Below are positions 39,586-60,391 of a DNA stretch of 64,000 nt, one piece after another (within the stretch, counting starts at the first letter, position 1; each line of letters starts with the position of its first letter). A program made the translations under genes and the position numbers. The notes under the pieces are model-generated. The model was not told where the DNA came from and made no database searches. It worked only from the letters and a program-made list of their open reading frames with translations. Source of the DNA: Candidatus Poseidoniaceae archaeon (GTDB lineage: Archaea; Thermoplasmatota; Poseidoniia; Poseidoniales; Poseidoniaceae); NCBI GenBank assembly GCA_045568435.1, contig JBJLBB010000006.1, forward strand, positions 141,382 to 205,381. The letters run 5' to 3'.

Positions 39586-40042
39586 TAACAGAATTTACCA
39601 AATCCTCTAAAGGGATTCTTATTCTGGGTATTGGAAAATCCACAATATGTTTCGTTGTTTTTGGAGGATAAAGGCGGCGGCTTTGGGCCCAATTTAGCAC
39701 ATCTTGTTTTGAAACATTAGAAAAATCGCTCCAGGGCCATAACTCTAGTTTGATGCTATCATTGTTTAGATACTCAACTTCGATAACTGGAATAAGGTTA
39801 AGCTTTAACTCGATGCTTGCTCGATATTTATGATGCCCATCAAGTATTGTTTTAGTTGTCTTATCAATCAAAATAGGTTTATGAAAAAAACCTTGTTTTT
39901 CCAACTTTTCTCGCATTTCTTGCAAGCGATCTGGGATGGTTTCCTCGTGAGGCAGTAAGTTGTCGATGTTAATTAATGACCACCCCATATTTAACTTTGA
40001 GAAAAGTTCGCTATTATTTATTGGGGTTGGATTGCTCATCAT
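39578..40042 (-). CDS. ParB/Srx-fold protein (SerK/SbnI-like N-terminal domain)
   Basis: LLPHEE, PILID, ILDGHHK and YPPKTTKH. The ATG at 40042 overlaps the upstream TGA (ATGA); the ORF-track start is 40060. Confidence 0.78.
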   Translation of the reverse strand: MMSNPTPINNSELFSKLNMGWSLINIDNLLPHEETIPDRLQEMREKLEKQGFFHKPILIDKTTKTILDGHHKYRASIELKLNLIPVIEVEYLNNDSIKLELWPWSDFSNVSKQDVLNWAQSRRLYPPKTTKHIVDFPIPRIRIPLEDLVNSVTI

Positions 40043-43000: not shown

Positions 43001-44505
43001 TCGAAATCACCTTCCTCATTCAGGGTGACTAACGGTTCAGCGTCGACTGAAATTTGTTGGTTTATGCCGTCATATCTCATGATTGAGATTTCTGAACTAC
43101 TATCTGATAATAACGCGTAAACTTCCTGCTGTTGCTCATCTGCACCGAGGTACAGAAGTCCCGAGGTGTCTGTAACTGGAGAGTCTTCCCAAATCATTGG
43201 GTTATGGATTGCTGCACCGGATGAGTGTGGCTTAAATCCAAGTGGCATTAGTCTAGTAAATTCGCCGTTGATTACATCAAGTTCAGCAACTGCATTAGCT
43301 TCCTGTATTGCTACCCAAGCCATAGTTGAGTCGGGTGAAACCGTAATATATTCTGGTTCAAAATCTACGCTCAAGTTTGCACTAGGCCCAAAAACCCTAA
43401 TGCCTTGTGCGGCCAATTCCTCTCTTTGACTTTCGAATTGGTGGAAATATGCATGCTTCACATCGTCTTGATTTAATTCGTCCAAAGGCCCGCTGACGTC
43501 AATGATTGTCACACTACCTTCTGGGTCTGCCTTGTAATCTGCTGATGGTTGCCCTTCATTGGCAACTAAAATTGTATTACCATCAGGGGTGAAGGTAATC
43601 ATATCTGGTTGGTATCCAGCGTTAACAATTGCTAACGCTTCGCCTGATGTGTCAATAAAATAAACTAAACCAATCATTGGTTCATCCTTAATGATTGGAT
43701 ATTGGATGCCGCTAATTATCTCATATTCAGTTCTCTCTTTGTGAACTGCAATCGCAAGTGTACCGTCAGAATGTCTAATATCGATGCTGTTTGGCTCGCC
43801 TATTCTGGAAAGGTCAACTCTATCTTCTAGGACAGGAAAGGTTGGATTGCTCATATTTACAATGTCGATTGATTTTTCCAGTACGTTTACCAAAAATAAC
43901 CGTTGGGTTACGGGATCATAAGCTGGTATTTCCAATGTGCCAAAGGTTCCTGCATCATGGTCATACATACCGAGAAGGCGTGCAGATAAGGTTTGACCCT
44001 GCGCTGGAGAGCCATAATTGATTGTTAGCCCATTACAAATTTCTGAGTTGTACATCATATCCGTTCTTTCAAAAACCGTGGTGAAAGTACATCCTTGTCC
44101 AGCAAGAATTAGGGAACGGTCGTCTGAGCATGTCAAAATGGCTTCACCGTTAGCAAGCAACGCAATTTTACATCCTGAATCCAGATTGATAAGCCTCTCA
44201 CCTACTGGATAATATTCGATAGTAACTGATTTATCATCGCAATTAAGTTTCAGTTCTTGGTTATTTGTAATTTCATAATCACAATTTTGAATATATCCTG
44301 CATCAACTGTTAACATAACAGAAAGAGGGACGCCATTAGCCCCAACACAAGTAAGTTGGGAATTATTTGCATCTAATACACACTCTCTCATTTGAAAATC
44401 GGGTAATGGAGTGTATACTGTCTCTATTTCGTTTTCATTAGATATGCACCCTGTCAAAAACATAGTACACAAAATTGCTACAATAAAAATTGCTTTCCTC
44501 TTCAT
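40039..44505 (-). CDS. Giant secreted lipoprotein: choice-of-anchor-I (alkaline-phosphatase-associated) propeller with inserted phytase-like, LTD and SdiA-regulated-like domains
   Basis: Lipobox LTGC. Outer-domain motifs PDMITFTPDG..ILVANEG.P, EPEYI, MYMPDGI, NEGD.RDY, GARSFSIW, DNKGIEPEG and LLVANEDSG. LTD motif IVINEV...DYIELFN. Confidence 0.8.
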   Translation of the reverse strand: MKRKAIFIVAILCTMFLTGCISNENEIETVYTPLPDFQMRECVLDANNSQLTCVGANGVPLSVMLTVDAGYIQNCDYEITNNQELKLNCDDKSVTIEYYPVGERLINLDSGCKIALLANGEAILTCSDDRSLILAGQGCTFTTVFERTDMMYNSEICNGLTINYGSPAQGQTLSARLLGMYDHDAGTFGTLEIPAYDPVTQRLFLVNVLEKSIDIVNMSNPTFPVLEDRVDLSRIGEPNSIDIRHSDGTLAIAVHKERTEYEIISGIQYPIIKDEPMIGLVYFIDTSGEALAIVNAGYQPDMITFTPDGNTILVANEGQPSADYKADPEGSVTIIDVSGPLDELNQDDVKHAYFHQFESQREELAAQGIRVFGPSANLSVDFEPEYITVSPDSTMAWVAIQEANAVAELDVINGEFTRLMPLGFKPHSSGAAIHNPMIWEDSPVTDTSGLLYLGADEQQQEVYALLSDSSSEISIMRYDGINQQISVDAEPLVTLNEEGDFEDLTVCNVDDLNVFLLGDESIPSLQIFGGDGNRLARLVPENLTIAQASDNDIPILPEAIAEIESNKGFEAVACHESTAFAMTQTSLSTPGTTERWIRLLEIDLSIMELTGQYLYPVELTDGAYSAGGKMDKVTSMVAINQDELLVIERDSLTGTDASKWVFRVDTSQATNLLELESSVTEAGVLEAMSMNEINDVEVDEPVTDPSSTIVSDQIVINEVASKVTLGPPNPFQDGVTDSDYIELFNPTANPVDLTGWKFYDDPAKSYTFPSGSSIQANSHLLLFADDTNDGNQDFAVTVDENGAHHLPIKISSGGESVTMEDSAGNVVDIVIVPALSPDTSWGRLVDSSTTFGVTGLSPGNPNSAYVGGEAGPTAASQGLNPVLKSPFVELGDRYGDKPEALTIVGNSISGEFQTISNTPYMLSIDNSLNSAVNDGPLTFTSLGTLLGSGEGSGLNYCAAYSAYLVADDSGSIHMIDNQGTPVDSYTTGSDYEAVTCDENGIIFAADESTTQVEILSYSTTFETHSIVSLSDLPVDIDDGQGLESLTFIPNTDRDTAWPSNEFGFLVAGSQTDNDLHVYAISSDWLNKTNQQFSTTSFSTIPTQGGDISGLDYIGNQQLIIVHDSSDLIEIRDFSGQIHSIHETPDNLEDLEGVDFSIDCPNNIGTIAYIDDKSLEVFVATITTSNLCDLDNNDGPIDLLNFLVDTGSWQFNPTGELNLAIMTDSGPTETNIPMGFVNIRLHPLDASDEDAYNPKPWPVMSMYMPDGITSYTVNGVTYLITGNEGDLRDYRYFNSSSGILEIGLNEEIRIASTNLDPMRFPDSSNMQQMNQLGRLNVPNNCGDHDGDGDLDYICGVGARSFSIWTTDLEMVWDSGHDFSQYSTNNGQHLVDEMNTRDDNKGIEPEGVKVGEIDGRQYLFVSMERSFGVMIYDITDPNNPTFQQWIQVDGSSNPEDMEFVSADVSPTGTPLLLVANEDSGSVGIWELMLI

Positions 44506-44514
44506 AATTTCACC

Positions 44515-45529
44515 TCAGGTTAAACCTCTTACCTCGTTATTCATCAGTACAGTATATTCTGTATGCTCGATGTGAATCTTTACGTAACAAATTGGGAATT
44601 CATCTCCTGTACCGCAAATATCTATTCCATCTTCCATCAGTAAAATGCTTTCACCAAAAGTCCAGACGGTATCTTCTACCTCTTGAATTATCATGCATCC
44701 AGTGCCCATGGAACCAGGTCCTGCCTCAGGATTGATGTCTTGGCCAGACATCATGCCGTTTGTCCGGCTTGCCGTTGGTGTCTGATCTTGTTGAAAATTG
44801 ACTGAACCATCTGGAACTGCGGCATATGATTCTGTTGAGGAAAGCGCAGGCCAAGAGATATTTTGGTGAACTTCTCCTTGTGGATTTATCAGCGAAACCA
44901 TTTCACCTTCTGATTTGAGTTTGAAGTTCATGTGTAAGGGCCCTTCCTCTGGTTCATCATCGCCCCAAACAATAAGGTAGCCTCCAGCGGGAATACTGGT
45001 GCCTGCGGGGAATGTGTAACCTTCTTTGCCGCCTGCGACATACTCTTCGAACGCATCAGTCATCTTCCAGTTGGACAAATCCATTGGCTCTGCACCTGGG
45101 TTGTAAAGTTCCAGCCAGTCATCATAATCGCCGGTTTCGTCTTGTAATCCCGCATCGTTCGACGCGACGATTTCGTTAATTCTCACATTCGGGCTGCCCG
45201 AGCCTGTGTTCTCGACTTCTACTAGAGTTGGGGGTAAGCATGTTTCGTTGAGTGGATTGTTGAATTGTGTTCCATCAGAATTTACCACCTCGACCGTTAT
45301 TGTAAGATTCGCCCATTCTACTGAAGCCCCCATGTTGGATTCAAACTCCAAGTTTAACAATGCATCTTGTTTGTTGAAGCCTACTTTTTGGGGTGAATCA
45401 TAATCATGAACTATCATGTATCCTTGGATCTCATACCTAGTTTCCTGTATCATCACTAGAGGTACACCCGGCTAAGGCAAAGCTTAGCATCATAAAAATC
45501 ATCAAAAACGCTTTACTGTAATTATTCAT
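44515..45529 (-). pseudogene. Lamin-tail-domain (LTD) lipoprotein with a pilin-head-like domain; frameshift near 45440 (error or pseudogene)
   Basis: ATG 45529 gives MNNYSKAFLMIFMMLSFALAGCTSSDDTGN* (signal peptide and lipobox). The body continues in another frame (ORF 44515-45456) with INEIVA..DWLELYN..DLSNW. Confidence 0.75.
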
Positions 45530-46826
45530 TGTTATCCCTCTTGGTTATCATCTTCTTCGTTAGACGTTGCTTCATTTGAATTGGTCGGTGGTTCGTTAGA
45601 AGTTTCCGATTCGTTATTGGATATGAATATTTAGTATGTGCCATGGATTCATTGAAAATACTCTCTGGTAGTGGAACAAAGCCTACTTCTGAAATAATCT
45701 CTTGTCCTCGTGAACTGTAACCAAATTCCAGGAAAGGTAGAACCTTGGCCCAAGATGAATTATCAATGTTGAGATATATTTCTCTTGCGAGAGGAAAATA
45801 GGTTTGATTCTTAATTGACGAAACGGTCGGATGTATTACGTCTTCAATGCCGTCCGCTGCACTGTGGGTTAAATTGGCAGATATTGGCACAGAATGGAGG
45901 ACGGATTGGTGTGCTTCATAGTAAGAATAACCGAAAAAGCCTATCGCAGCGCCGTCTTGTGAAACCCCGTTGACAATGACGTTGTCGTTGGCGCTGTTTT
46001 GATAACCATTACCGCGTTGAGATGCAAAGGCTTCCACTGGGTAATCTCTTTCGCCAGCAAAACACTTGGTACAGAATACCATTTCGCCAAAGTATTCATA
46101 AGTACCAGATTGTAAATCCGGGCCCCAGAGTGATATTTCTTGGTCCAAACAATCGCTTGTATCGCCCAAATCCTTCCACTCACGAACTCCATCATCATCG
46201 TTATTTGGGGTCACGCTTGAAAGATCAAGACCGCCAAATTGTGAATAAACTAAGTCGCTTTCACTCCAATCTGAATAAATCCAGCGTAATTGTGCAACGC
46301 TGAGGCCGCCAATTGATTGTATACAACGGTCAGCATCACCGCCGCGGGCAACAATGAGGGTTACGCCGTCCATGGCAATTGGCATTTGGGTGAGAACGAT
46401 ATCGCTTGGTTTACAAGAAAAATACCTGGTACCAGATTCGAGAGTTGCCTCGATTGGTTTGAATGTTCGACTCATTGAACCAATATCGACATGGTCATTA
46501 GAGGTAGAGCAAACTGCAGAAGCCCCCACTCCCGAGCCGCCGCTGGCAACTGAGACTTGGATAGAGCCAATTTCTTCCCTAAAGCCCTCTGCCCATCCAG
46601 TTGCTAGCGGATACACAGTCGAAGACCCAGCGATCCTTATATTGCCACCAGATTGTTCGATTTGAGTGCTTCCATCAGTTATTGTATAATCTCCATTAGA
46701 TTCTTGCTTGCCTTCATCATTGGAAATGCACCCTGACATCATGGTAAAAACTAGTAGAGCCATCATAGTGAAGCAACGGAAATTATACTTCTCCATAGTT
46801 GCGGTAGAATGGTCAAATAGATTCAT
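45522..46826 (-). CDS. pstS: Phosphate-binding lipoprotein PstS (single domain; C-terminal tail probably frameshifted)
   Basis: Lipobox MSGC, IAGSSTVYP, SGGSGVG, DIGSMSR, SGTYEYF, IGFFGYSYY, YFPLAREIY and VGFVPL. Confidence 0.9.
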   Translation of the reverse strand: MNLFDHSTATMEKYNFRCFTMMALLVFTMMSGCISNDEGKQESNGDYTITDGSTQIEQSGGNIRIAGSSTVYPLATGWAEGFREEIGSIQVSVASGGSGVGASAVCSTSNDHVDIGSMSRTFKPIEATLESGTRYFSCKPSDIVLTQMPIAMDGVTLIVARGGDADRCIQSIGGLSVAQLRWIYSDWSESDLVYSQFGGLDLSSVTPNNDDDGVREWKDLGDTSDCLDQEISLWGPDLQSGTYEYFGEMVFCTKCFAGERDYPVEAFASQRGNGYQNSANDNVIVNGVSQDGAAIGFFGYSYYEAHQSVLHSVPISANLTHSAADGIEDVIHPTVSSIKNQTYFPLAREIYLNIDNSSWAKVLPFLEFGYSSRGQEIISEVGFVPLPESIFNESMAHTKYSYPITNRKLLTNHRPIQMKQRLTKKMITKRDNNE

Positions 46827-48468: not shown

Positions 48469-48517
48469 TGAGATTATGCTCGGGGGTTTCGGCCCCCGAG
48501 TATACTCATTTTATTTT
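48469..48517. terminator. GC-rich hairpin with TTCG loop and T-tract between convergent genes
   Basis: tatgctcggggg-tttcgg-cccccgagtata followed by ttttatttt. Confidence 0.75.
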
Positions 48518-48534: not shown

Positions 48535-49617
48535 TTATGAAGCGATGTTAGTAATCCTTGAATCGAGGAAATTTTGAATCGCATTGTATGCTGCTTCAAC
48601 CCCGTTATCGAAGATTATTGTTGGTGATTCATTGTTAGCCGATAATAGTGCAGCGTCTAAATCATCTACAGTGATTTTACGCTTATTCAGCATTGCAACA
48701 TTGGCATAGGCTTTGCTCGCTAGCACTGCATTAATCTCTTGCTCAACTTGGCCGGGTTCTGGAATGCACAAAGATGGAAGCCCTAACACACCAACTTCAC
48801 CGAGTAGTTGGCTACCTGCGGTTTGATAAATTAAATCGCAACTAAGTAAATCATCAATAAAACCCTGATTGGAAATTGGGCAAGAAATGACATCTTCTGG
48901 TATTTCTTCGGGTTTATGGCCGTATAACTTTACTTTCAAACCGTGCTTTCTGGCATGATCGACTATTGCGTCAAAATGGCAAAGTACGCTTTTTCTCATG
49001 TAAGCAACAGCATGGGTGCCTTGTGGCTGCCATGCACCAGGGAAAAACTGCGGCCTAAGCATAGGGCCAACTAGATGTACATCATCTTTTTTTGGCTCTA
49101 AATTAAAGCCCTTTGAAATAACGCTTAAAGCAGGTCTTGGAGTGAAGATTTTGCACAATAACCTTACTGGAAAAAGTCGTGCTCGTTGGCTTATTGACAA
49201 CCTATCAGCAAGTTTTGTGTCAAGTGAGAAACGTTGGCTGTTGAAGGAGATAATTGGTTTATCGAGCGTTTTTGCTGCTCTGGCAAATGTCGGTTCAAAA
49301 TCTGAGATTAAAGCATCAGGCTGATAGTGTTGTAATTGCTTTATACAATCCTTGACTCTGTTACGATGGCCTTTGATGAATTTAGCAGTAGCATAGGCAG
49401 TGCCAAAGTAGGATATTCCTCGTTTCCCCAGTACAAATCTTGGGGTTTCTAGATGAGTCACTGATTCGGCTCCGTACCGCTTCTCTAACAAATCTACTGC
49501 ATCGCCACAAGTAAAGAACTGTACGCTGTGGCCGGCTTCAATCAGTCGGTCTGCTAAACCGATAGCACGAGTAGTATGCCCCCTGCCTTCGCCTGCTAAG
49601 GCATAAGCGATATTCAT
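48535..49617 (-). CDS. GT-B glycosyltransferase, MJ1255/VC2487-like (GT28-related)
   Basis: YALAGEGRGHTTR, ISDFEP, TAGSQLLGE and P.PGQVEQEINA. ATGA overlap with the upstream metallophosphoesterase. Confidence 0.85.
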   Translation of the reverse strand: MNIAYALAGEGRGHTTRAIGLADRLIEAGHSVQFFTCGDAVDLLEKRYGAESVTHLETPRFVLGKRGISYFGTAYATAKFIKGHRNRVKDCIKQLQHYQPDALISDFEPTFARAAKTLDKPIISFNSQRFSLDTKLADRLSISQRARLFPVRLLCKIFTPRPALSVISKGFNLEPKKDDVHLVGPMLRPQFFPGAWQPQGTHAVAYMRKSVLCHFDAIVDHARKHGLKVKLYGHKPEEIPEDVISCPISNQGFIDDLLSCDLIYQTAGSQLLGEVGVLGLPSLCIPEPGQVEQEINAVLASKAYANVAMLNKRKITVDDLDAALLSANNESPTIIFDNGVEAAYNAIQNFLDSRITNIAS

Positions 49618-50519
49618 ACAATCACCTCGGCAGCACGCTCGATATTCGGCTCTAATTCATCGAAATCAAGATTGAATTCTGCTTCGAAGGATGGTTGATT
49701 GCTGGCACTTTGTTTCGCTCTTTCTCTCAGTAGTGAAATTGTTGAGATTTTCGGTGAATACTCTAGGATTTCCATTGTTCCATCCATTGCTTCTGCGATT
49801 GCGGTACAAGATTCCAACCAATCTCCGTCATTCCAATATTCTACGCCGTTTTTTACTCGGAATTCTGCTTTGTGAATATGTCCACAAACTACTCCATCAT
49901 ATCCGAGTCTCGCGGCTTCTCGTGTTACAGTATTAACATAGTTTTTGAATGTCCTGGAATTACTTTGCATCGCCCTTCTAGCAGCGGTTGCTAATGACCA
50001 CTGGGGCAGTTTTAGCAATCGCCTAGCCCAAGCAATAGGGCGGTTTATTTTCATCAATAATTGAACGCTAAAGTGGCCTAAGTGGCACAGCCAGCGATGG
50101 TTTTTGATAAATAAGTCAAACTCATCTCCATGTATTATCCATAGATTTCGACCGTCTGCAGTAGTGTGTTCTGCTTGATTTATTATTTCTATGCCATGAA
50201 TTTTTGTTGAACACCAATCGCGGAATGCCTCATCATGATTGCCGGGTATGTAGTAAATCTGAGTGCCTTTATTGGCTTTTGAAATCAAATTTTGTATTAT
50301 TAGATCTTCAGTTTCTGTCCAATGCCACTTCTTCCCTTTGCACCAGTGGTCAATAATATCACCAACAAGGTAGATTTTCTCTGCGTCATGAGATTGTAAG
50401 AAGGCTAACAGCTTATCGCTTTGAACGCCTTTAAGTCCAAGATGGCAATCTGAAATGAATAACGTTCGATAATGTGTGGCCTCTAGTAACAGAAATAGCG
50501 CCCCGTTTGGGCTAATCAA
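49614..50519 (-). CDS. PlcP/LpxH-like metallophosphoesterase (phospholipase C-like)
   Basis: YRTLFISDCHLG, YLVGDIID.W, YIPGNHDE, IHGDEFD, VVCGHIH and YWNDGDWLESCTA. Confidence 0.85.
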   Translation of the reverse strand: MISPNGALFLLLEATHYRTLFISDCHLGLKGVQSDKLLAFLQSHDAEKIYLVGDIIDHWCKGKKWHWTETEDLIIQNLISKANKGTQIYYIPGNHDEAFRDWCSTKIHGIEIINQAEHTTADGRNLWIIHGDEFDLFIKNHRWLCHLGHFSVQLLMKINRPIAWARRLLKLPQWSLATAARRAMQSNSRTFKNYVNTVTREAARLGYDGVVCGHIHKAEFRVKNGVEYWNDGDWLESCTAIAEAMDGTMEILEYSPKISTISLLRERAKQSASNQPSFEAEFNLDFDELEPNIERAAEVIV

Positions 50520-50574
50520 GGAGAATACTATATTTCACCCCAAAGAAAGTAAGTCGTAGTATATAGGATATATA

Positions 50575-51690
50575 TCAACCAAATCTCCCTGAAATATACC
50601 TAGCAGTCAATTCTTTTGATGGGTCGCCAAAAATTTTCGAGGTCTTGTCGAATTCAACTAGTCTGCCGAGGTACATGAAGCCGGTATAGTCACTTACACG
50701 TTGAGCTTGACTCATAGAGTGAGTAACAATAACCACTGTGAAATGTTTTTTCAGTTCCAAAATTAATTCTTCAATTTTTGCCGTAGCAATAGGATCTAAT
50801 GCTGAACAAGGTTCGTCCATAAGAATTACTTCGGGTTCAACTGCAATTGTTCTAGCAATACAAAGTCGTTGTTGTTGTCCACCGGATAGACTGGTGCCCA
50901 ACTCATGGAGTCTGTCGTTAACTTCGTCCCAAATTGCAGCACGTCGCAATGACTCTTCGACTATTTTATCCAACTCCCTCCTACTTGGGGTGTAATGAAG
51001 TCTAACGCCGTATGCGACATTTTCGTAAATTGATTTAGGGAATGGATTTGGTTTTTGAAATACCATGCCAACTCTTCGACGGATGGTAACCAAGTCAGCA
51101 CTACGCCCCATTATTTCCTCGCCGTCAAGTTCGACTGAACCGTCCACTTTACAAATTGAGATTAGATCATTCATTCGATTTAAACATCGCAATAAAGTCG
51201 ACTTACCGCAACCGGATGGGCCGATTAGAGCAGTCACTGAATTGCGTTTGAATGGGATGGATACATTGTAAATTGCTTGGGCATTGCCATAGTGTAAATC
51301 TAAGTCCCGAATCCACATATGAGCATCGCCATCGATTTCTAAATCTCTTGTTGAATCTGGTATTTCTTCATGAATATCAGAATCATCGCTCATTTCATCC
51401 GGTAATGATGCTAAATATTCTTTGATGATTGTAGATTCCTCAAAATCTGCTTTGCCATCAATCTTAGACATTGAGGTTAAGATACCTCGAATTTGAGATT
51501 TTTTAGGCTGTTCCGAATCGTTAGAGAGCAGTTGTTTTAGTTGAACGAAAAGTTGTTCCTCCTCGTCAGAAATTTCCCCGTCGGCCGCCATTAGCTCTTG
51601 CAATGCATTGAATAACGACTCATGATTATCACTAATCTCTGTCTCTTCAACGATTTCTTCATCTTCTGTGTTTTCTTGTTTTTTCGTCAT
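50575..51690 (-). CDS. pstB: Phosphate ABC transporter ATPase with a ~120-aa TerB-like N-terminal extension
   Basis: [56 protein letters not shown] and YISGRFG. Confidence 0.96.
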
Positions 51691-54600
51691 GTGCTTGAAT
51701 ACCTCCTAAAGTGTGCACGGAGTAAAATTGCTGCTGAGTTGACAATAACTAAAGTACCTAACAACACGATTGAAGCGCCAGCAGCTGCGACTTTAAAGCC
51801 CATTTTTGGCATATCTGTCCAGCGATATACTTGAACTGGTAATACGGTGTAAAATCCTCTATCATTAGAGTCTGGTCCAACATATTCTGCCGGATCTGCC
51901 GACATTGGGCCTCGGTCAGCCCATAATGGAATGTTTTGTAAGTGAGGTTCAATACCAGGGAACCAACTAGCAAATCCGTCTAACGATGGAGTATGCTGAT
52001 ATGATACGTAAAAGAAGGCGTCTGGTTCAGTAAATACTGAGGCAACTGCGCCAACCAAAATAAGAGGTGCTGCCTCCCCCATAATTCTTGACATGGCTAA
52101 AATAGTTCCAGTCATCATTCCAGGCATTGCATGTGGCAATACATGGTCTTTAGTCACCTGCCATTTGGTACAGCCTAAACCAAATGCTGCATTTCGTAAT
52201 GATGGTGGAACTGCCCTGAGCGCCTCTTGTGAAGAGATTACAATTGTAGGCATAGCCATCGTTGCCATGGTCATACCAGCGGTCATCACTGTACCCCCCA
52301 ATCCTAGACCAATTCCTCTATCAGTCAAAAAGAGGGCTAATCCAAATAACCCGAATACAATCGCTGGAACTCCAGCAAGGTTAGTAATTAGAGCTTGAAT
52401 TCCTCTTCGGAACGAATTATTTGGTGCATACTCTTCTAGCCAAATTGCTGCGCCAATTGAAAGGGGAATGGCAAACAACATCGTGTATCCCACAACGTAG
52501 ACGCTACCCCAAAATGCCGCCCTTAAACCCGCTTTATACGGTTCTGATGAAGTATAATCTGACCATACAAATGGAATGTGAATATTCATTGGAATGACAA
52601 ACAATGCTATCACCATGACCACCAGTGCCGCAGTCATCCATCCCTCTCGTCCTTTGATTACTAATCCTAATCGGTCTTCCTGAATCTTGTTGGTTCGAGT
52701 CAATTGTAGTGCTGCAATTACCAACTTTTTAGCCCCGACAAACGACATCAATAATAGAACCGCCCCTATAATCCATCCTTCGATTAAAATCCATGAAAGA
52801 GCAATATACCAGACGATTACGTTTAACACCAACAACCCGAAATCTACCAATCCGTCTGCTAGAGGAACATTTTCATCAGGGCGCATCTTGATAATATCTG
52901 AAATTGCAGTAATTAAGGCGATAAAACTCATCAGTGATACTGCTCCACCAATCGTGAATGAGAATGGGACCAATAATACCGGTTGGTTTTCATTAAATGT
53001 ACTAATAAAGATAAGCAATGCTCCGATGAAAATAAGTAGCCTAATTAGAACACCAAATAATCTGCTTAATAGTTCTGAAGAAAATGATAACCATGACCAT
53101 GTTGTTTTCGTTCCAGTATCAAGTTCCTTTGAGCCTAATTTGATGAGCCCTGAACGTATTGATAACAGAGTCCGGTTTGGATATCTAACAACAAAAAACA
53201 TCCCAATTAATCCTAGGTAAGCAAACATCGGCAGATAAGGGTCTCGTTCTTCATACATTTCCAAGCCACTCTCATGTCGATTTGAGGCTCCGCAATATTG
53301 CAGCCATGATAACTGGTCAAGATATCTAATTGTATCACACCATTCTTCTGAGTCCATTATTTGATCTGATACTAGAGAAGTTGCTTTATCACAATCAAAG
53401 TCTGCATATAGTGGATCATTTTGTTTGTATGATTCTGAACATTTTTTCGAATACAGGTCAGAAGTAATTTGCCAAACAACAGGTATTGAGGAGATATTGG
53501 TTTCAGAATAATTAAACAACTTTGCGGCAGAAACCCCTTGCCCTTGAACCAAGTTAGCAATACCGTCTCCGTCGATATCTCTATCTTTTACTTCATCATG
53601 AACTCCATCGCCATCTGCATCGTTTAATGAAATCCATTCACTTATTGACATTGGTTGGTCGCCTGATTCATATCGGCCAACGCCTGGACAATATTTTGGA
53701 TGCCCGATAATAGGATTATCGTCATTATCCCCATCAATATCAAAGTCACAAACATCAATTGTTCCATCGTTATCCAAGTCATCGTCATCGATAAACCGGA
53801 ATTGGAACCAATCTGCGGGAGAGCCAAGAGCAAAATCGCCAACCTCTCTGTATGAGGTTTCTAGAGCGTCATTAGCCGGACCTGATGTTTGAGAATAAGT
53901 GACAGTGTAATTCATCGTATGGTTGACATATAGCCAATTTGTTGTTACCCCTCCTGACGGTTTTAAAGTGATGTGGGAGTCTCTCTCAAAGTAATCCCAT
54001 TGACCTAAAAAGCCGTTTGATAATGAAGGGGCAGCAATTCGACTAGATGTGCTAAAATACGGGCCTGATGGGTCATCCACTAGGTTGACATACACTACAT
54101 CGTGACCTGTATTAGAAATAGTTACTCGGAATTCGGTTGACCGGGTTTTGGTAAAAATTGATGCTTGGATTTCATAGCCATCGTCATTCTTGAATTCTCC
54201 TACAACTGCCTCACCAGTCAAACCTGCTGATAGGATGTATGCTGATGTTTCAGCCTTAGTACAGAATTCTGGGGTAAACATTCCAATATACTCTTGAGGC
54301 CGTAATATCTGTTCTGGAATTTGCTCAATGTCAAGTGGCCGCCATTCCCTATCTGTTTGGTTGTAAATCGAAGCAACTGTTATTTCTGAAAATTCGCCTA
54401 TTCCAGTTGCGCTTCTGTTAAGCCAAATATCTCCATCACCGCGGAAAATTGGCGTTACTGGTGTATAATGTAGCCATAATTTACCATCTTTGAATGCGTG
54501 CGGGTAATCATTGCTGAACTCTAATACACTGTTTAAGAATTCGTCGCCCTCTGCTGAATCCCAACGGAGACCTTTCCATACCCATTGGCTTCCATCATCT

Positions 54601-55379
54601 GAATCGACCCAATAATCTCCCATTCCTGGGGTTGGGGCATCTGGTCGCTTGAAGATGTTGATTCGCTCTTCTTCTCCGGTGCTGTAGCCCTTAGCTTCTT
54701 GACTAGTGCCGGGTAATATGTCTAGAACCTCCCATGGCTCAACAGGTTTGTAAGTATATTCTGCTAAGCCCTCATCACAAAGCGTACGCTCTAAGTCAGT
54801 ATCTAAATCCCATACAGATTGGCCGTCTATGCTGGTAAATATCTCTGAGTCATTTTCTATGCCCATAAAAGCACCGTTAGAGAGTATTGGTCTTGGATCG
54901 TAATTGTCTCGAGTTGCAGCATAGTGAGTTTCTTCCCATTTTGCCTCTATAGTGATATTAGACCGATCTATGCGTAAGTCTGCATCGAAGGGTTCAACCC
55001 TTGCATCGCTAGGTACTGACAAACCAGACGGTATTTGGTCGGTTCTGTACTCTACAGTATTGCCGGAACTATCTAACCAGCTTGTTATGCTGTACGCTTC
55101 CCAAGAAGGATTCCAACTTTCTGCTTTCCAAGAAAGTTGTGTTTGTGCAACTGGTTTACTGCCTTCTCTTATCCCATCAACTTCAATTTCTTGTTCAGGA
55201 ACAAATGCCTCCTCTGTGATTTGTGTCAATAGAGTAACAAGAGCTAAACCGCAAACTAAAGCAATTGAAATAAACACGGATTTGCCAATTTTGGCGGTTG
55301 CATAACGGCGCTTTAACGAGCGTTGTGGAAGCAGGGATGTACCGAAAAGGCCATTGTAATTGCTCAGTCGTTCTCTCAA
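51687..55379 (-). CDS. pstA: Phosphate ABC transporter permease PstA with a very large extracellular insertion (1230 aa)
   Basis: C-terminal core [47 protein letters not shown]-like and LPVQVY.W. Confidence 0.9.
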
Positions 55380-57883
55380 TCGTATTCCTCCCTAAAACGA
55401 GTCATTATCCTGTGTCCGACCAAGTTTAATGCTAATGTAATGACAAATAGGTATAATCCAACTGCGAACAATGAATAGTATGGTGTTGTGCCAATAGGTA
55501 ATTCTCCTCCGATTCGTTGAGCAATATATGCAGTCATTGTTTGGGCAGATCTAAACATATTGTCTGAATATACTGCTAATGTTCCCACAGACAATGTCAC
55601 GGCCATCGTTTCACCTATTGCCCTTGATAAAGCGAGAATAATTGATGCCAATATGCCAGAGAGGGCCGATGGAATTGTTACTCTTGCTGTTGTTTCGGTG
55701 GGTGTTGCACCAAGAGCATAAGACGCCTGTCTCAAATTATCTGGCACTGCTCTCAAGGCATCTTCAGATAATGAAGCGATTAGGGGTGTAATCATTATCC
55801 CCACTACAATTGCTCCGTTTAGAGGATTGAATAGTTGGGGTTCTTGCGAGATCCACCCACGTTCGAGAAAAGATATGCCAATGTCTACCACTATTGGAGC
55901 GATGACTACGAAAGCAAAAAATCCGTAAACTACAGAGGGGATGCCTGCTAATAGTTCAAGAATCGGTTTGACAATATTTGCAACTCTAGGGCTGGCATAT
56001 TCGGACAAAAATATGGCTGTACCGAGTCCTAATGGAATGGCGATGACCAATGCACCTAAAGCAACTTGCAAGGTTGTTTGCAATAGGGAATTTACTCCCA
56101 TATGGAGGTTTGAATCTACTGTGACTAAACCAACTGTTGTTATGTCTGTCTTCCACCATGTCTGTGTGAAGAATTCTCCCAATGAGCCATTAACTCGAGC
56201 AACTACATCCAGATACATCAAAAGAATGGTTATTACCACTGCAATATTCATTGCTAATCTACTATCTGAATCAACAACTGCATATTTGTTATTACCTGAT
56301 TGATTCCTTGAGTCGTTGATTACCTTAGCAAACATTAACACTGCTACGCAAAGTGCAATAGTATGACCTATTTGGATAAAATAGAAGTTTGTGAATGAGA
56401 TGAAAAGCGAGAATATCCCTAGACTTAAAGTGGAATAAGGTAACTTTCCATCTAATTTCCAGCCAAAAAATGTCAATATGAAGCTTAATGCAGAGACTAA
56501 AAGAATGATTGACAAACTAGGTGGAACTAACATAGACATGGTACTTATGGTTGCCAAAAATGCAAAATTTGTTCTTAACACTGGCACTATCAAGTCTATT
56601 CGTTCAACTGGAATGTTTACTAACCAGCGAGGTGAAAATATTGTCAATACTACAACTAGGATGGTAATTACTCCCAACAACAGACCGAATTTATCTCTAT
56701 CTGGAGTGTATGGGTTTGGATCGTAAGCATTAGGTAATCCATCACTATCGATATCTTCGTCAATGTTATTTGTGATGCCGTCGCCATCAATATCATTATC
56801 AAGAAGTTTGCCTGCTCCATCAACTTGCTCATTTGCTACTCCATCGCTATCATAGTCAAACGGCAAATCCTTAATTTCCAACTTTCTCAAATTATCGAGT
56901 AAGTCCTGATGTGAATTATTGCCCCCTGTTGTAAAGTCGCTGGTGAAAATATATGATGATACCTCGTTTGAAAAATTATATGATGATGAACTAAAACGTG
57001 AAATTGATTCGCCTTGAAAATCAAAGAATGAGTATTGATCAATGGTGAAGCATCCATCGCTGGTTTTCTCGATACCACGAATAACAAATTCATCTTCAAG
57101 TGACTGGAGTATTGGTTGCCCCTCATTATGACAAAGTGTTACTTGATTGATGTTTATCTCGTCGTTCTTTTTGTAATCGGTGTTATTTTCATAATATGGT
57201 AATAGCGCTTGGTATTCTTCCATGCTGAGTCTAGCACTATCATCACCAACCCATATCGTCACCCACCATTCTCGAGCGAGTTCGGGGTCTTGTTTGTGTA
57301 ATATCAAGGCATTTTCATTATCTGCAATGTATTGTAAGGGTATCTTTGGATTCTCGTCATCCCAATGCTCCGGGTTTTGATCAAAGTATTCAGATAAATA
57401 TGAACGTTCTGAATCTAATCTTGGTCCAACGATTATTGTCCCATCAGCAAGCTGAAAAGCACTGCCTTGTCTATCGCTATCGTCTGTATAGGTTCCGCTA
57501 CTAGAGTCCCACCCGTAGGTATCTATCATTGGGTCAGACAGAAAGACCATGTGTTCCATATCCCAATCAACTATACAAAAAGTGTCTAGCCACAGTGGGT
57601 CAGATAGTTTTCCATCGTCATATATTGCAGCGTCTTTGATACTTGCCTTCAAATCTTCATCCCAATCTTGAGGTGGGGTAAATGAGTCGGCACCGCATGC
57701 AAATCCTCGATAGAATTTCGAACCGGATTCAAATAATACAAACACGATGCCGGCAGTGATCATTACCACGGTAGCAGCAAGGGCAAATAAGACGATACCT
57801 GGGGCACTTTCTTCTACTCTTCCTCGCCAACGCATAACTTGCCCCCCAACATTCTGCGTTGTGTTATGTGATGGCAGAGGCAT
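55376..57883 (-). CDS. pstC: Phosphate ABC transporter permease PstC with a large extracellular insertion (835 aa)
   Basis: Core GLGTAIFLSEY, KPILELLAGIPSVVYGFF, SEDALRAVP, SRAIGETMAV and LFAVGLYLF. The start is uncertain (possibly MRWRG). Confidence 0.9.
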   Translation of the reverse strand: MPLPSHNTTQNVGGQVMRWRGRVEESAPGIVLFALAATVVMITAGIVFVLFESGSKFYRGFACGADSFTPPQDWDEDLKASIKDAAIYDDGKLSDPLWLDTFCIVDWDMEHMVFLSDPMIDTYGWDSSSGTYTDDSDRQGSAFQLADGTIIVGPRLDSERSYLSEYFDQNPEHWDDENPKIPLQYIADNENALILHKQDPELAREWWVTIWVGDDSARLSMEEYQALLPYYENNTDYKKNDEININQVTLCHNEGQPILQSLEDEFVIRGIEKTSDGCFTIDQYSFFDFQGESISRFSSSSYNFSNEVSSYIFTSDFTTGGNNSHQDLLDNLRKLEIKDLPFDYDSDGVANEQVDGAGKLLDNDIDGDGITNNIDEDIDSDGLPNAYDPNPYTPDRDKFGLLLGVITILVVVLTIFSPRWLVNIPVERIDLIVPVLRTNFAFLATISTMSMLVPPSLSIILLVSALSFILTFFGWKLDGKLPYSTLSLGIFSLFISFTNFYFIQIGHTIALCVAVLMFAKVINDSRNQSGNNKYAVVDSDSRLAMNIAVVITILLMYLDVVARVNGSLGEFFTQTWWKTDITTVGLVTVDSNLHMGVNSLLQTTLQVALGALVIAIPLGLGTAIFLSEYASPRVANIVKPILELLAGIPSVVYGFFAFVVIAPIVVDIGISFLERGWISQEPQLFNPLNGAIVVGIMITPLIASLSEDALRAVPDNLRQASYALGATPTETTARVTIPSALSGILASIILALSRAIGETMAVTLSVGTLAVYSDNMFRSAQTMTAYIAQRIGGELPIGTTPYYSLFAVGLYLFVITLALNLVGHRIMTRFREEYD

Positions 57884-57929
57884 TGGACTCTTTTATGTTC
57901 CTAAATATACTATATAGTCATACATAGTT

Positions 57930-60244: not shown

Positions 60245-60299
60245 AGTATGCTCTCTCTCGATTCGGGGGTAGTTCACATAGTATTGTGTACTGCCTCCA

Positions 60300-60345
60300 C
60301 AAACTAATTATTTCACTATATTAATATATAGGCATATATATAATT
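60300..60345. promoter_or_regulatory. AT-rich divergent promoter region for pstS and the phoU regulator, with a CTATAT-N4-ATATAG inverted repeat
   Basis: CTATAT at 60316-60321 and ATATAG at 60326-60331, with flanking TATA-like tracts. Confidence 0.5.
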
Positions 60346-60391
60346 GGGGTGTCATGGGTATCTATCCGGAGTCATACGGAGGTGCGTTAAC

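What the first reader, a model, noticed from the sequence alone, without database searches (positions are those of the whole stretch)
48535..50519. PlcP-like phospholipase plus glycosyltransferase in an archaeal phosphate island: candidate lipid remodelling system
Seen: a metallophosphoesterase with the complete PlcP/LpxH-like motif set overlaps (ATGA) a GT-B glycosyltransferase, directly downstream of pstB on the same strand. Known: in SAR11, roseobacters and rhizobia, PlcP removes phospholipid headgroups under P starvation and a linked glycosyltransferase (Agt) builds P-free glycolipids on the released DAG. Archaea lack lipid A, so a true LpxH role is implausible. Inference: this archaeon may strip phosphate from its ether phospholipids and glycosylate the core, using an MJ1255-type GT rather than Agt. 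I am not aware of this being characterised in marine archaea.
Basis: partly seen in the sequence, partly recalled or inferred. Interest (0 to 1): 0.9.

Follow-up and report, generated by a model that had tools for sequence, protein, structure and literature searches.

The report
Bacterial-type PlcP lipid remodelling in archaea
A marine planktonic archaeon carries, at the tail of its phosphate-uptake operon, a bacterial-type enzyme that removes phosphate headgroups from membrane lipids and an overlapping sugar-adding enzyme, which suggests it can replace phospholipids with sugar lipids when phosphate is scarce.

Summary
ORFs 49614-50519(-) and 48535-49617(-) overlap by ATGA and follow pstB on the same strand.

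The phosphoesterase is a PlcP-family protein, not LpxH:
- 45.6% identity to the S. meliloti PlcP orthologue against 24% to E. coli LpxH.
- It sits on the PlcP side of a 100/100 split from LpxH.
- It has the PlcP residue at all 14 discriminating positions.
- It scores 55.6 bits on an LpxH model with a 134-bit cut-off, like validated PlcPs.

Archaeal copies form one clade (99/98), confined to Poseidoniales (MGII) and present in 23 of 401 sampled species genomes.

The glycosyltransferase is not Agt (GT4). It is a PF13528 GT-B enzyme closest to GT1/GT28 types. An MPE lies directly upstream of it in 25 of 30 loci.

Here the pair ends a pstSCAB string inside a ~25 kb accessory phosphate island that is missing at the syntenic site in 3 of 3 same-genus genomes tested. 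Elsewhere in the order, 12 of 25 pairs have no pst gene in the fetched flanks.

Function, substrate and phosphate regulation remain inferred. I found no report of an archaeal PlcP.

The parts
49614..50519 (-). PlcP-family metallophosphoesterase (301 aa as listed; start codon uncertain): LpxH-like core plus a helical cap insert at about residues 131-204
   Evidence: ORF. Pfam and NCBIfam. 45.6% identity to the S. meliloti PlcP orthologue, 24% to E. coli LpxH. Trees. Discriminating residues. Model pLDDT 85.3 with the top 25 PDB matches all LpxH.
48535..49617 (-). PF13528 GT-B glycosyltransferase (360 aa), GT1/GT28-like, overlapping the MPE stop codon by ATGA
   Evidence: Model pLDDT 89.4. Foldseek top hits are GT1 UDP-glycosyltransferases, with MurG at rank 50. 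hhalign against E. coli MurG gives 72% probability over 265 columns, and against P. aeruginosa Agt1 2.3%.
50520..50574 (-). 55-nt pstB-MPE spacer with AT-rich TATA-like elements (TATATATCCTATATAC ... AAATATAGTA); possible internal promoter
   Evidence: Sequence. The 8-mer CCTATATA occurs only here and upstream of pstS3 in the 64 kb window, but a count of 2 is not beyond chance.
48479..48500 (.). GC-rich hairpin (CTCGGGGG-CCGAAA-CCCCCGAG) about 35 nt past the GT stop, between convergent genes; probable end of the transcription unit
   Evidence: Read from the sequence printed; not tested further.
50575..51690 (-). pstB, long form with a roughly 125-aa acidic N-terminal extension
   Evidence: TIGR00972 389.1 bits over residues 125-371. 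Long and short forms within the genus.
51687..55379 (-). pstA-like permease, 1230 aa, with a long N-terminal extension
   Evidence: BPD_transp_1 only at residues 972-1117.
55376..57883 (-). pstC-like permease, 835 aa, with a long N-terminal extension
   Evidence: BPD_transp_1 at residues 616-827.
57996..59282 (-). PstS-like phosphate-binding protein 2
   Evidence: PBP_like_2, 82.1 bits.
59504..60277 (-). PstS-like protein 3 (shorter)
   Evidence: PBP_like_2, 48.4 bits.
60344..61180 (+). Protein with an AbrB/MazE-type domain and a PhoU domain, divergent from pstS3; likely regulator
   Evidence: PhoU 43.3 bits plus MazE_antitoxin 28.8 bits.
61443..62120 (+). PhoU-domain protein
   Evidence: PhoU 33 bits.
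45522..46826 (-). PstS-family phosphate-binding protein 1
   Evidence: TIGR02136 141.4 bits (below the 206.6 cut-off); PBP_like_2 56.4 bits.
40039..44505 (-). 1488-aa protein with choice-of-anchor I, phytase-like and LTD domains; candidate organic-phosphate scavenger; left part of the island
   Evidence: choice_anch_I 346.7 bits, Phytase-like 105.9 bits, LTD 59.7 bits.

Best explanation
The two overlapping genes form a lipid-headgroup exchange module. The first product is a cytoplasmic or peripheral, metal-dependent phospholipase C of the bacterial PlcP family. It cleaves the phosphodiester between the glycerol backbone and the phosphorylated headgroup of the cell's own membrane phospholipids. 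This releases a phospho-headgroup, whose phosphate can be recycled, and leaves a lipid alcohol: a diradylglycerol, which may be diether, diester or mixed. The second product is a GT-B glycosyltransferase of the PF13528 family (GT1/GT28-like, so probably inverting). It transfers a sugar from a nucleotide sugar onto that lipid alcohol, giving a phosphorus-free glycolipid. Poseidoniales acquired the plcP gene once from bacteria and coupled it to a GT that is not homologous to the bacterial Agt. In this lineage the module was joined to the 3' end of a pstS-pstC-pstA-pstB string inside an accessory phosphate island, so it is probably expressed together with high-affinity phosphate uptake under phosphate scarcity. 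What is shown: family membership, a single archaeal clade, tight pairing with the GT, and the island context. What is inferred: the enzymatic activities, the lipid substrate and sugar, and phosphate regulation.
For: (1) PlcP membership. BLASTP gives 45.6% identity over 237 aa (221 bits) to the S. meliloti orthologue, 38.1% over 260 aa (200 bits) to the P. aeruginosa one, and 24% (37.7 bits) to E. coli LpxH. The two references are 46.6% identical to each other, matching the published 46%. On LpxH model NF003743 the scores are: window 55.6, P. aeruginosa PlcP 55.1, S. meliloti PlcP 38.1, E. coli LpxH 364 bits, against a cut-off of 134. In the trees, the LpxH-versus-rest split has support 98* (80 rows, quick) and 100/100* (34 rows, careful), and the window lies on the side holding both PlcP references. 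There are 14 positions conserved in at least 90% of 57 bacterial PlcP-like rows whose residue is absent from 3 true LpxH. The archaeal majority residue is the PlcP state at 14 of 14, including GNH95D where LpxH has Arg. (2) Lipid-type fold. The model has pLDDT 85.3, and the top 25 PDB matches are all LpxH (E about 1e-11), the metallophosphoesterase with a helical lipid-binding cap. The next match has E = 4e-8. (3) Coupling. The genes overlap by ATGA. An MPE lies directly upstream on the same strand in 25 of 30 GT loci, and 3 of the 5 others have under 900 nt of upstream DNA. Identities of the two genes fall in step across lineages. (4) Phosphate context. The pair follows pstS-C-A-B and is flanked by PhoU-domain genes, extra PstS genes and a phytase-like protein. 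All 5 same-genus genomes with the long-form PstB have the MPE, directly after pstB in all 5, while none of 6 with the short form has it. The pstCAB-MPE-GT order recurs in 11 loci, including a second lineage with 70% identical PstB. The island is missing at the syntenic site in 3 of 3 same-genus genomes. (5) Bacterial precedent. PlcP followed by a GT with a 4-nt overlap is the P. aeruginosa arrangement. A PF13528 GT lies beside a PlcP-like gene in 2 of 6 bacterial genomes examined. (6) Neither protein has a transmembrane-like segment, and PlcP is described as intracellular. (7) RNA-library contigs from one study match parts of the MPE at 99% or more; this is weak support.
Against: There is no biochemical or genetic evidence for either activity in any archaeon. 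No member of PF13528/TIGR00661 was found characterised, and no solved structure is detectable by sequence. The GT's best structural matches glycosylate small hydrophobic aglycones (YojK, OleD, CalG, SpnG), not membrane lipids. The MurG profile match is only 72% probability. Phosphate linkage is not universal: 12 of 25 pair loci have no pst gene in the fetched flank, although 4 of these have under 3 kb of upstream DNA, and in G039 and G045 the pair sits among NAD synthase, IleRS and aldehyde dehydrogenase genes. The shared upstream 8-mer is not statistically supported, since 49 of 100 shuffles give at least 2 matches. The deep branching inside the PlcP-like family is unresolved, so function rests on family membership and not on a resolved bracket. 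The lipids of MGII are unknown. The cap region is markedly diverged from bacterial PlcPs, with a cap/core identity ratio of 0.52-0.68 against 0.84-0.91 among bacteria, so substrate specificity may differ. The RNA evidence is assembled contigs from libraries that can carry DNA.
Confidence: 0.6

Rival explanations
1. The pair is a general glycolipid biosynthesis route and not a phosphate-starvation response. The PlcP-like enzyme supplies the lipid alcohol, from a phospholipid or from a biosynthetic intermediate such as a phosphatidate- or CDP-activated lipid. The GT then makes a structural glycolipid constitutively, or in response to other stresses such as energy limitation or permeability needs. 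The pst linkage in this lineage would then be secondary.
For: In 12 of 25 pair loci no pst gene lies in the fetched flank, and in two distant lineages the neighbours are housekeeping genes. The non-pst arrangement (MPE-GT next to tandem thymidylate-kinase-family genes) looks like the older core, to which pst genes were added in some lineages. A TATA-like element upstream of the MPE recurs whether or not pstB precedes it, which suggests an own promoter. In Methanothermobacter, glycolipids dominate under energy and potassium stress as well as phosphate stress (abstract and passages).
Against: The pair is rare: 23 of 401 species genomes, and 9 of 67 high-quality ones. That is odd for a structural pathway. 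Where its context is informative it joins phosphate genes repeatedly, with pstCAB directly upstream in 11 loci of two lineages, PstS adjacent in L030 and L037, and choice-of-anchor-I/phytase-like genes in several others. Characterised family members are Pho-regulated in bacteria.
Confidence: 0.2
2. The MPE works LpxH-style as a pyrophosphatase or phosphodiesterase on a nucleotide- or polyprenyl-phosphate-linked glycoconjugate, and not on bulk phospholipids. Together with the GT it would belong to a cell-surface glycan or lipid-linked oligosaccharide pathway.
For: The only solved relatives are LpxH. The GT resembles MurG, which acts on a polyprenyl-diphosphate-linked acceptor. A DegT-family sugar aminotransferase lies at the island edge, an NAD-dependent sugar epimerase/dehydratase lies near the pair in L008, and a GT4 gene lies near it in L016.
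Against: The protein is on the PlcP side of a maximally supported split from LpxH. It has His and not Arg in the GNxD motif, along with all 14 PlcP-type discriminating residues. It scores like validated PlcPs on the LpxH models. Those sugar-metabolism neighbours are not conserved across loci.
Confidence: 0.1
3. The MPE is catabolic. It cleaves imported foreign phospholipids or lyso-lipids to harvest phosphorus and carbon, fitting the lipid-degrading lifestyle proposed for MGII, and the GT has an unrelated or detoxifying role.
For: MGII are predicted to degrade lipids and fatty acids (passages). The island carries other scavenging candidates, namely the phytase-like protein and several PstS.
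Against: There is no signal peptide or transmembrane-like segment, so the enzyme is intracellular. The near-obligate translational coupling to a GT (25 of 30 loci, ATGA overlap) is unexplained by catabolism. No lipid transporter was seen in the island.
Confidence: 0.07

Closest known systems
Bacterial PlcP-Agt lipid renovation pathway (S. meliloti, Phaeobacter sp. MED193, SAR11 HTCC7211, P. aeruginosa PA3219/PA3218, Methylosinus OB3b)
   Same: The phosphoesterase belongs to the same family: 45.6% and 38.1% identity to the S. meliloti and P. aeruginosa orthologues, the same side of the split from LpxH, and the same discriminating residues. The two-gene layout is the same, with the GT directly downstream and a 4-nt overlap as in P. 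aeruginosa. It is linked to phosphate-stress genes.
   Different: The host is an archaeon whose membrane lipids are unknown. The GT is not homologous to Agt at sequence or profile level: PF13528 against GT4, hhalign 2.3%. It is probably inverting and not retaining (CAZy family knowledge, recalled). The lipid-binding cap is unusually diverged. The module is physically appended to pstSCAB; whether bacterial plcP-agt operons ever sit beside pst was not examined here.
LpxH (UDP-2,3-diacylglucosamine diphosphatase, lipid A pathway)
   Same: It has a metallophosphoesterase core with a helical lipid-binding cap, and LpxH is the only solved structural relative. Automatic annotations call family members LpxH.
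   Different: It scores 55.6 bits against a cut-off of 134, has His95 where LpxH has Arg, shares 24% identity, and is separated by a 100/100 branch. Archaea make no lipid A (established knowledge).
GT28/GT1 GT-B glycosyltransferases acting on lipophilic acceptors (MurG; GT1 UDP-glycosyltransferases such as YojK and OleD)
   Same: It has the GT-B fold, an N-terminal Gly-rich loop ending in His (AGEGRGH against MurG AGGTGGH), and a C-terminal donor motif that aligns with MurG. Its top structural matches are GT1 enzymes. GT28 is one of the three families known to hold glycoglycerolipid synthases (passage).
   Different: It is below the cut-off for PF04101 (18.8 against 22) and for TIGR00661. No characterised member of PF13528 was found. 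The acceptor and sugar are unknown.
Glycolipid enrichment in Methanothermobacter thermautotrophicus under nutrient and energy stress
   Same: It is an archaeal shift from phospholipids to glycolipids under phosphate and potassium limitation (abstract and passages).
   Different: It is a physiological observation only; no enzymes are named in the passages I read. The organism is unrelated and has canonical archaeal lipids.

Membership tests
PlcP (intracellular metallophosphoesterase-type phospholipase C of lipid remodelling) | Complete calcineurin-like metallophosphoesterase metal-binding motif set | tested here: met
   D24xH26, GD54, GN94H95D, H130GD and GH214xH216 are invariant in 27 aligned homologues. 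The 19 positions shared by PlcP-like proteins and LpxH are kept in 18-19 of 19 archaeal rows.
PlcP (intracellular metallophosphoesterase-type phospholipase C of lipid remodelling) | Groups with genetically validated PlcPs and apart from LpxH in a phylogeny (the published test uses LpxH as outgroup) | tested here: met
   The LpxH-versus-rest split has support 98* (80 rows) and 100/100* (34 rows), and the window is on the side holding the S. meliloti and P. aeruginosa orthologues. The backbone inside the family is unresolved. References from MED193, HTCC7211 and OB3b, and LpxG, were not obtainable.
PlcP (intracellular metallophosphoesterase-type phospholipase C of lipid remodelling) | Sequence similarity at the level used to call PlcP in ocean metagenomes (BLASTP E < 1e-40 to a validated PlcP) | tested here: inconclusive
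   It scores 221 and 200 bits to the S. meliloti and P. aeruginosa orthologues, which would pass 1e-40 in a large database by my estimate. The published reference sequence (MED193, EAQ46983) was not available, so the exact criterion was not run.
PlcP (intracellular metallophosphoesterase-type phospholipase C of lipid remodelling) | Residues that set PlcP-type proteins apart from LpxH | tested here: met
   At all 14 discriminating positions the archaeal majority residue is the PlcP state, held by at least 90% of archaeal rows at 10 of the 14. The window itself has 14 of 14 by my reading of its sequence.
PlcP (intracellular metallophosphoesterase-type phospholipase C of lipid remodelling) | Phospholipase C activity on membrane phospholipids, metal dependent | not testable with these tools
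   This needs an enzyme assay. The biochemical paper (Wei et al. 2018) was not held.
PlcP (intracellular metallophosphoesterase-type phospholipase C of lipid remodelling) | Induction under phosphate starvation (Pho regulon) | tested here: inconclusive
   The context is strongly phosphate-linked here but not in 12 of 25 loci. The shared upstream motif is not significant. RNA contigs show presence in RNA libraries only.
LpxH | Score above the curated equivalog cut-offs (NF003743 134 bits; TIGR01854 190.35 bits) | tested here: not met
   It scores 55.6 and 45.5 bits. E. coli LpxH scores 364.3 and 388.9.
LpxH | Arg in place of His in the GNxD motif | tested here: not met
   The window has H95, while the three above-cut-off LpxH rows have R at that column.
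Agt (GT4 glycolipid glycosyltransferase of the PlcP-Agt pathway) | GT4 domain architecture and detectable homology to a characterised Agt | tested here: not met
   PF13439 scores 21.8 against a cut-off of 28.5. BLASTP to P. aeruginosa Agt1 gives E = 1.1 and hhalign gives 2.3% probability. Agt1 itself hits PF13439, PF00534 and PF13692.
MJ1255/VC2487 glycosyltransferase subfamily (TIGR00661) | Score above the curated cut-off of 195.9 bits | tested here: not met
   It scores 69.8 bits. It is a member of the wider Pfam family PF13528, at 127.5 bits against a cut-off of 25.
GT28 (MurG / MGDG-synthase type) | Glyco_tran_28_C domain and MurG-like G-loop and donor motifs | tested here: inconclusive
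   PF04101 scores 18.8 against a cut-off of 22. hhalign to E. coli MurG gives 72% probability, E = 3.4e-5, with 265 columns and aligned motifs. MurG ranks 50 by Foldseek, behind GT1 enzymes.

The most novel reading that the evidence does not exclude
Marine Group II archaea captured a bacterial PlcP once and have kept it across both families of the order. They could do so because their phospholipids sit on a bacterial-type sn-glycerol-3-phosphate backbone, so a bacterial headgroup-cleaving enzyme worked on arrival. Its lipid-binding cap then diverged to fit isoprenoid or mixed chains, and a GT1/GT28-like transferase turns the product into a so far undescribed phosphorus-free glycolipid. That glycolipid would be a biomarker of phosphate-stressed MGII. 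The pair would then be the first genetic handle on what MGII membranes are made of, and the first enzymatically defined phosphate-sparing lipid remodelling system in Archaea.
Probability: 0.25. Interest if true: 0.85.

Novelty: new variant of a known kind. Interest (0 to 1): 0.65.

Why it matters
Replacing phospholipids with phosphorus-free lipids is a major way marine phytoplankton and bacteria lower their phosphorus demand. So far it has been attributed to bacteria and algae. The published ocean surveys of PlcP report hits mostly from Proteobacteria and Bacteroidetes, and I found no paper linking PlcP to archaea.

MGII are described as the most abundant planktonic archaea in ocean surface waters (abstract of PMC6461757). 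Their membrane lipids are an open and disputed question. They lack G1P dehydrogenase, and known archaeal lipids were not found where they dominate.

A PlcP-GT pair in MGII gives two small soluble enzymes that can be expressed and fed defined lipids: ether or ester, G1P or G3P backbone. Their substrate preference would speak directly to that question. The pair could also serve as a gene marker for phosphate stress in MGII populations, and it predicts a new glycolipid to look for in phosphate-poor waters.

Tried and rejected
- PDB sequence search with the GT found no hit at E <= 0.01.
- Rfam at gathering thresholds found nothing in the window. ARAGORN found no tRNA, so there is no tRNA-linked island boundary.
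- The listing of cluster members on the ten nearest non-archaeal representatives returned no organism names.
- The careful (bootstrap) tree of 80 rows did not finish in three 300-s runs. I replaced it with a careful tree of 34 rows. That tree dropped the long-branch L043, 8 of the 18 archaeal locus rows including near-duplicates, P0180, and most unnamed representatives.
- The 80-row tree itself used 44 of the 149 representatives P0177-P0325 from the 150 listed (P0015, the window's own archaeal cluster, was not used as a row). Those outside 240-350 aa were dropped and the rest thinned.
- Fold search with pdb_via_wide was not accepted twice, so there is no Foldseek-independent structural ranking of the GT.
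Wei et al. 2018 on PlcP biochemistry is not held.
- The protein-atlas search returned only PF13528 clusters and added nothing.
- The upstream 8-mer CCTATATA occurs twice, which is not beyond chance since 49 of 100 shuffles give at least 2. The longer pattern's 3 matches include one palindromic site counted on both strands, and they do not include the MPE copy, which lacks one base. I kept this only as a lead.
- Read laying: no listed RNA-library contig bridges the pstB-MPE spacer, and parts of the GT are covered only by relatives at about 90% identity. These are contigs from a single study, so nothing can be said about operon structure, level or regulation. Five runs labelled 'RNA?
- PF01210 (G3P dehydrogenase N-domain) matches the genome, but the control rings in all 14 control genomes, so it does not discriminate.
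- LpxG, MED193, HTCC7211 and OB3b reference sequences could not be obtained with the available tools.
- Supplementary files of the papers were not consulted. Supplementary gene tables of the MGII comparative-genomics papers might list this gene under an LpxH label.
Full report
**Observation.** The two ORFs are real and lie where stated: a 301-aa metallophosphoesterase (MPE) at 49614-50519 and a 360-aa glycosyltransferase (GT) at 48535-49617, both on the minus strand. The GT's ATG overlaps the MPE's TGA as ATGA. The MPE hits Pfam Metallophos, and the GT hits PF13528 Glyco_trans_1_3 at 127.5 bits. The upstream gene on the same strand is PstB, at 389.1 bits on TIGR00972 against a cut-off of 343.2. 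It is separated from the MPE by 55 nt. The listed TTG start is not conserved in the close relative L010, so the true start is uncertain. The organism is a Poseidoniales (Marine Group II) archaeon. The GT's 98%-identical relative is named 'Candidatus Poseidoniaceae archaeon', and related loci carry Poseidoniales, Poseidoniaceae or Thalassarchaeaceae titles.

**Is the MPE PlcP or LpxH?** Curated LpxH models reject it: 55.6 bits against 134, and 45.5 against 190.35. The nearest solved proteins by sequence are LpxH at only E = 2e-5. Its nearest named relatives are alphaproteobacterial proteins labelled LpxH, at 42-49% identity.

To get references from species where PlcP was genetically validated, I searched the annotated plasmid collection by protein. 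This returned two useful records:
- A chromosome-sized S. meliloti replicon, where the gene lies beside an AHL synthase and a LuxR regulator.
- A P. aeruginosa record, where the gene is followed with a 4-nt overlap by a glycosyltransferase. That is the PA3219-PA3218 layout described in PMC8528852 (passages).

These two proteins are 46.6% identical to each other, matching the 46% published for PA3219 and S. meliloti PlcP. I take this as confirmation that they are the right orthologues.

| Comparison | Identity | Bits |
|---|---|---|
| Window MPE vs S. meliloti PlcP | 45.6% over 237 aa | 221 |
| Window MPE vs P. aeruginosa PlcP | 38.1% over 260 aa | 200 |
| Window MPE vs E. coli LpxH | 24% over 175 aa | 37.7 |

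On LpxH model NF003743 (cut-off 134) the validated PlcPs behave like the window protein: P. aeruginosa 55.1 bits, S. meliloti 38.1, window 55.6, and E. coli LpxH 364.

**Trees.** A quick IQ-TREE of 80 rows was made up of 18 archaeal locus sequences, 2 PlcP references, 4 LpxH, 12 other bacterial sequences, and 44 of the 149 representatives P0177-P0325 listed. It splits LpxH from all others at 98*, and puts all archaeal rows in one clade at 98*. That clade includes P0180, which is nearly identical to L036.

The bootstrap version of that tree did not finish. A careful tree of 34 rows gave 100/100* for the LpxH split and 99/98* for archaeal monophyly, the latter in 100% of 200 bootstrap trees. The backbone inside the PlcP-like family was unresolved. 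So the protein is on the PlcP side, but its bacterial sister group cannot be named.

**Discriminating residues.** There are 14 positions conserved in at least 90% of 57 bacterial PlcP-like rows whose residue is absent from three true LpxH. At all 14 the archaeal majority residue is the PlcP state, including His95 in GNHD where LpxH has Arg.

**Structure of the MPE.** The AlphaFold model (pLDDT 85.3) matches LpxH in its top 25 PDB hits at E about 1e-11. There is then a gap to PolD and Mre11 at 4e-8 or weaker. So it has the LpxH-type core plus a helical cap, the part that binds lipid in LpxH.

**The GT.** The family is small: 56 hits among 6336 candidates. The 30 loci found in species-representative genomes are nearly all Poseidoniales. 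One 'Flavobacteriales' MAG contig (L030) is almost identical to an archaeal contig (L037) and has Poseidoniales-type neighbours, so it is probably mis-binned.

The GT shows no similarity to P. aeruginosa Agt1: BLASTP E = 1.1, and hhalign 2.3%. Agt1 is GT4 by Pfam and by the literature. The GT model (pLDDT 89.4) is GT-B. It best matches GT1 UDP-glycosyltransferases of hydrophobic aglycones, with MurG at rank 50. A profile comparison with E. coli MurG gives 72% probability over 265 columns, aligning the N-terminal Gly-loop/His and the C-terminal donor motifs.

The GT fails the curated MJ1255/VC2487 model, at 69.8 bits against 195.9. No characterised PF13528 member was found in the literature search. 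That GT1 and GT28 enzymes invert the anomeric configuration, while GT4 enzymes retain it, is recalled CAZy knowledge and not a result here.

**Coupling of the two genes.** Among the 30 GT loci, an MPE lies directly upstream on the same strand in 25. In one Pseudomonadota MAG it is adjacent but divergent. One locus (L032) truly lacks it despite 3.3 kb of upstream DNA, and three have under 900 nt upstream. Identities of the MPE and GT to the window fall together across lineages: about 93/93%, 60/56%, 42/48% and 38/36%. This fits inheritance as a unit. In bacteria, a PF13528 GT lies next to a PlcP-like gene in 2 of 6 genomes examined, so this pairing is not unique to archaea.

**Distribution.** The MPE was found in 23 of 401 sampled Poseidoniales species genomes, and in 9 of 67 high-quality ones. 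By family that is 18 of 199 in f1, 1 of 2 in f2 and 3 of 199 in f3, not counting the window's own genome. It is an accessory trait.

**Phosphate context.** In the window the pair ends a co-directional string: pstS (57996-59282), pstC, pstA, pstB, MPE, GT. It is flanked by another PstS-like gene, a divergent gene with AbrB/MazE-type and PhoU domains, and a second PhoU-domain gene. Downstream lie a further PstS, lamin-tail-domain (LTD) proteins and a 1488-aa protein with choice-of-anchor-I and phytase-like domains.

PstB itself is accessory in the genus: 12 of 61 genomes, and 6 of 17 high-quality ones. It comes in two forms:
- All 5 genomes with the long-form PstB (376-aa open frame) have the MPE, directly after pstB in all 5.
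- None of the 6 genomes with the short form has it.

The flanks of the island lie 2-3 kb apart in three same-genus genomes that lack it, against about 26 kb in the window. The pstCAB-MPE-GT order recurs in 11 loci, including a second lineage whose PstB is only about 70% identical. PstS or PstB lie nearby in two more loci.

Against this, 12 of 25 pair loci show no pst gene in the fetched flanks, although four of them have under 3 kb of upstream DNA. In G039 and G045 the neighbours are housekeeping genes. In non-pst loci the pair is followed by the same tandem thymidylate-kinase-family genes that bound the window's island, and in L022 it is preceded by a choice-of-anchor-I protein. The simplest reading is a core MPE-GT module to which phosphate genes were added in some lineages.

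A TATA-like element recurs upstream of the MPE with or without pstB. The window's version resembles the pstS3/PhoU-domain gene intergenic region, but this is not statistically supported.

**Substrate.** This genome has:
- No G1P-dehydrogenase-type match, although all four archaeal control genomes ring.
- GGGP synthase and CarS.
- Three PlsC-type acyltransferase matches, a family that rings in none of the four archaeal controls.

This reproduces what is published for MGII, where ether lipids on a G3P backbone or mixed membranes have been proposed and known archaeal lipids were not detected where MGII dominate (passages). A G3P backbone would present a bacterial PlcP with its usual headgroup stereochemistry. 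That is my inference.

The cap region is disproportionately diverged. The cap/core identity ratio is 0.52-0.68 for the window against bacterial PlcPs, and 0.84-0.91 among bacterial PlcPs at similar core identity. The basal archaeal lineage L036 still has 0.92. This is a small-sample hint that the lipid-binding part adapted after transfer. Neither protein has a transmembrane-like segment.

**Expression.** RNA-library contigs from one study (three samples) match parts of the MPE (for example 50244-50504 with one mismatch), pstB, and GT relatives at about 90%. They are assembled contigs from libraries that may contain DNA, so this is only weak support for transcription. It says nothing about regulation.

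**Literature.** I saw passages of PMC4796936, PMC8528852, PMC6030836, PMC9239053, PMC8231724, PMC10132767, PMC6962369, PMC6461757 and PMC4302986 through term searches, and search listings for the rest. No listed paper links PlcP to archaea or to MGII. Many hits for 'PLCP' are papain-like cysteine proteases. The library covers open-access papers only, and supplements were closed. A mention in a subscription paper, or in a supplementary gene table under an LpxH label, cannot be excluded.

**Verdict.** What is established is a PlcP-family enzyme, acquired once by MGII, tightly coupled to a non-Agt GT, and in this lineage built into an accessory phosphate island. What remains inferred is the chemistry (substrate, sugar, product) and phosphate control. 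I rate it as a new variant of a known kind and of fairly high interest. This is because it extends phosphate-sparing lipid remodelling to Archaea and offers an experimental route into the unresolved question of what MGII membrane lipids are.

Noticed in passing
window 51687-55379 and 55376-57883 (-); 50575-51690 (-): The Pst permeases are giant (1230 and 835 aa), and only their C-terminal parts match BPD_transp_1. The long N-terminal parts have no Pfam match. PstB carries a roughly 125-aa acidic N-terminal extension. Within the genus there are two PstB forms (376- and 276-aa open frames), and only the long form co-occurs with the MPE.
   Followed up: partly
window 40039-44505, 44515-45456 (-), 46940-48436 (+): Three island proteins carry lamin-tail domains (LTD). 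One of them also has an archaeal type IV pilin N-terminus, and another has choice-of-anchor-I and phytase-like domains. They may form a surface apparatus for organic-phosphate capture.
   Followed up: no
L044 88-2283 (+), Nevskia sp. genome G407: This is a 731-aa ORF whose C-terminal residues 467-725 are a PlcP-like domain (40.5% identity to the window). The N-terminal 466 residues have no Pfam match. It may be a fusion of PlcP with an unknown partner domain.
   Followed up: partly
L030 (Flavobacteriales bacterium NAT179) and L037 (Euryarchaeota archaeon UBA125): The MPE and GT of the 'Flavobacteriales' contig are almost identical to those of an archaeal contig, and its flanks hold Poseidoniales-type PstB, PstS, LTD and phytase-like homologues. 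It is probably an archaeal contig mis-binned into a bacterial MAG. A 'Verrucomicrobiota' GT on a 2.5 kb contig (P0160) may be another such case.
   Followed up: partly
L048 (CP090106.1) and L049 (NZ_CP137508.1) in the plasmid collection: A 3.72 Mb S. meliloti replicon is labelled 'plasmid pSymB' but is chromosome-sized. P. aeruginosa records labelled as plasmids carry the plcP-agt1 locus with ordinary housekeeping-type neighbours.
   Followed up: no
window 38182-38916 and 38917-39585 (+); L016 8163-9631; L022 8579-10137: Tandem thymidylate-kinase-family genes lie next to the MPE-GT pair in non-pst loci and mark the left edge of the window's island. This looks like a conserved anchor point for the locus.
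   Followed up: partly
L016 3108-4319 (-): A GT4-family glycosyltransferase (PF00534, 148 bits) lies about 1.8 kb upstream of the MPE on the opposite strand in a non-pst locus. It could be a second glycolipid GT.
   Followed up: no
L032, L034, L035: There is a second, more distant PF13528 GT paralogue (38-41% identity). It has no MPE upstream in L032. L034 comes from the same MAG as the pair-bearing L029, so some genomes hold two GT copies.
   Followed up: no
window 60325-60340, 57911-57926, 50560-50575 (-): A TATATAT(G)CCTATATA-like element lies in the pstS3/PhoU-domain gene intergenic region, with two mismatches between pstS2 and pstC, and with a one-base deletion upstream of the MPE. It may be a shared promoter or regulator site of the phosphate genes, but it is AT-rich and not statistically secure.
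   Followed up: partly
window 48479-48500: A perfect 8-bp GC-rich hairpin lies between the convergent GT and pilin-LTD genes. It looks like a bidirectional terminator.
   Followed up: no
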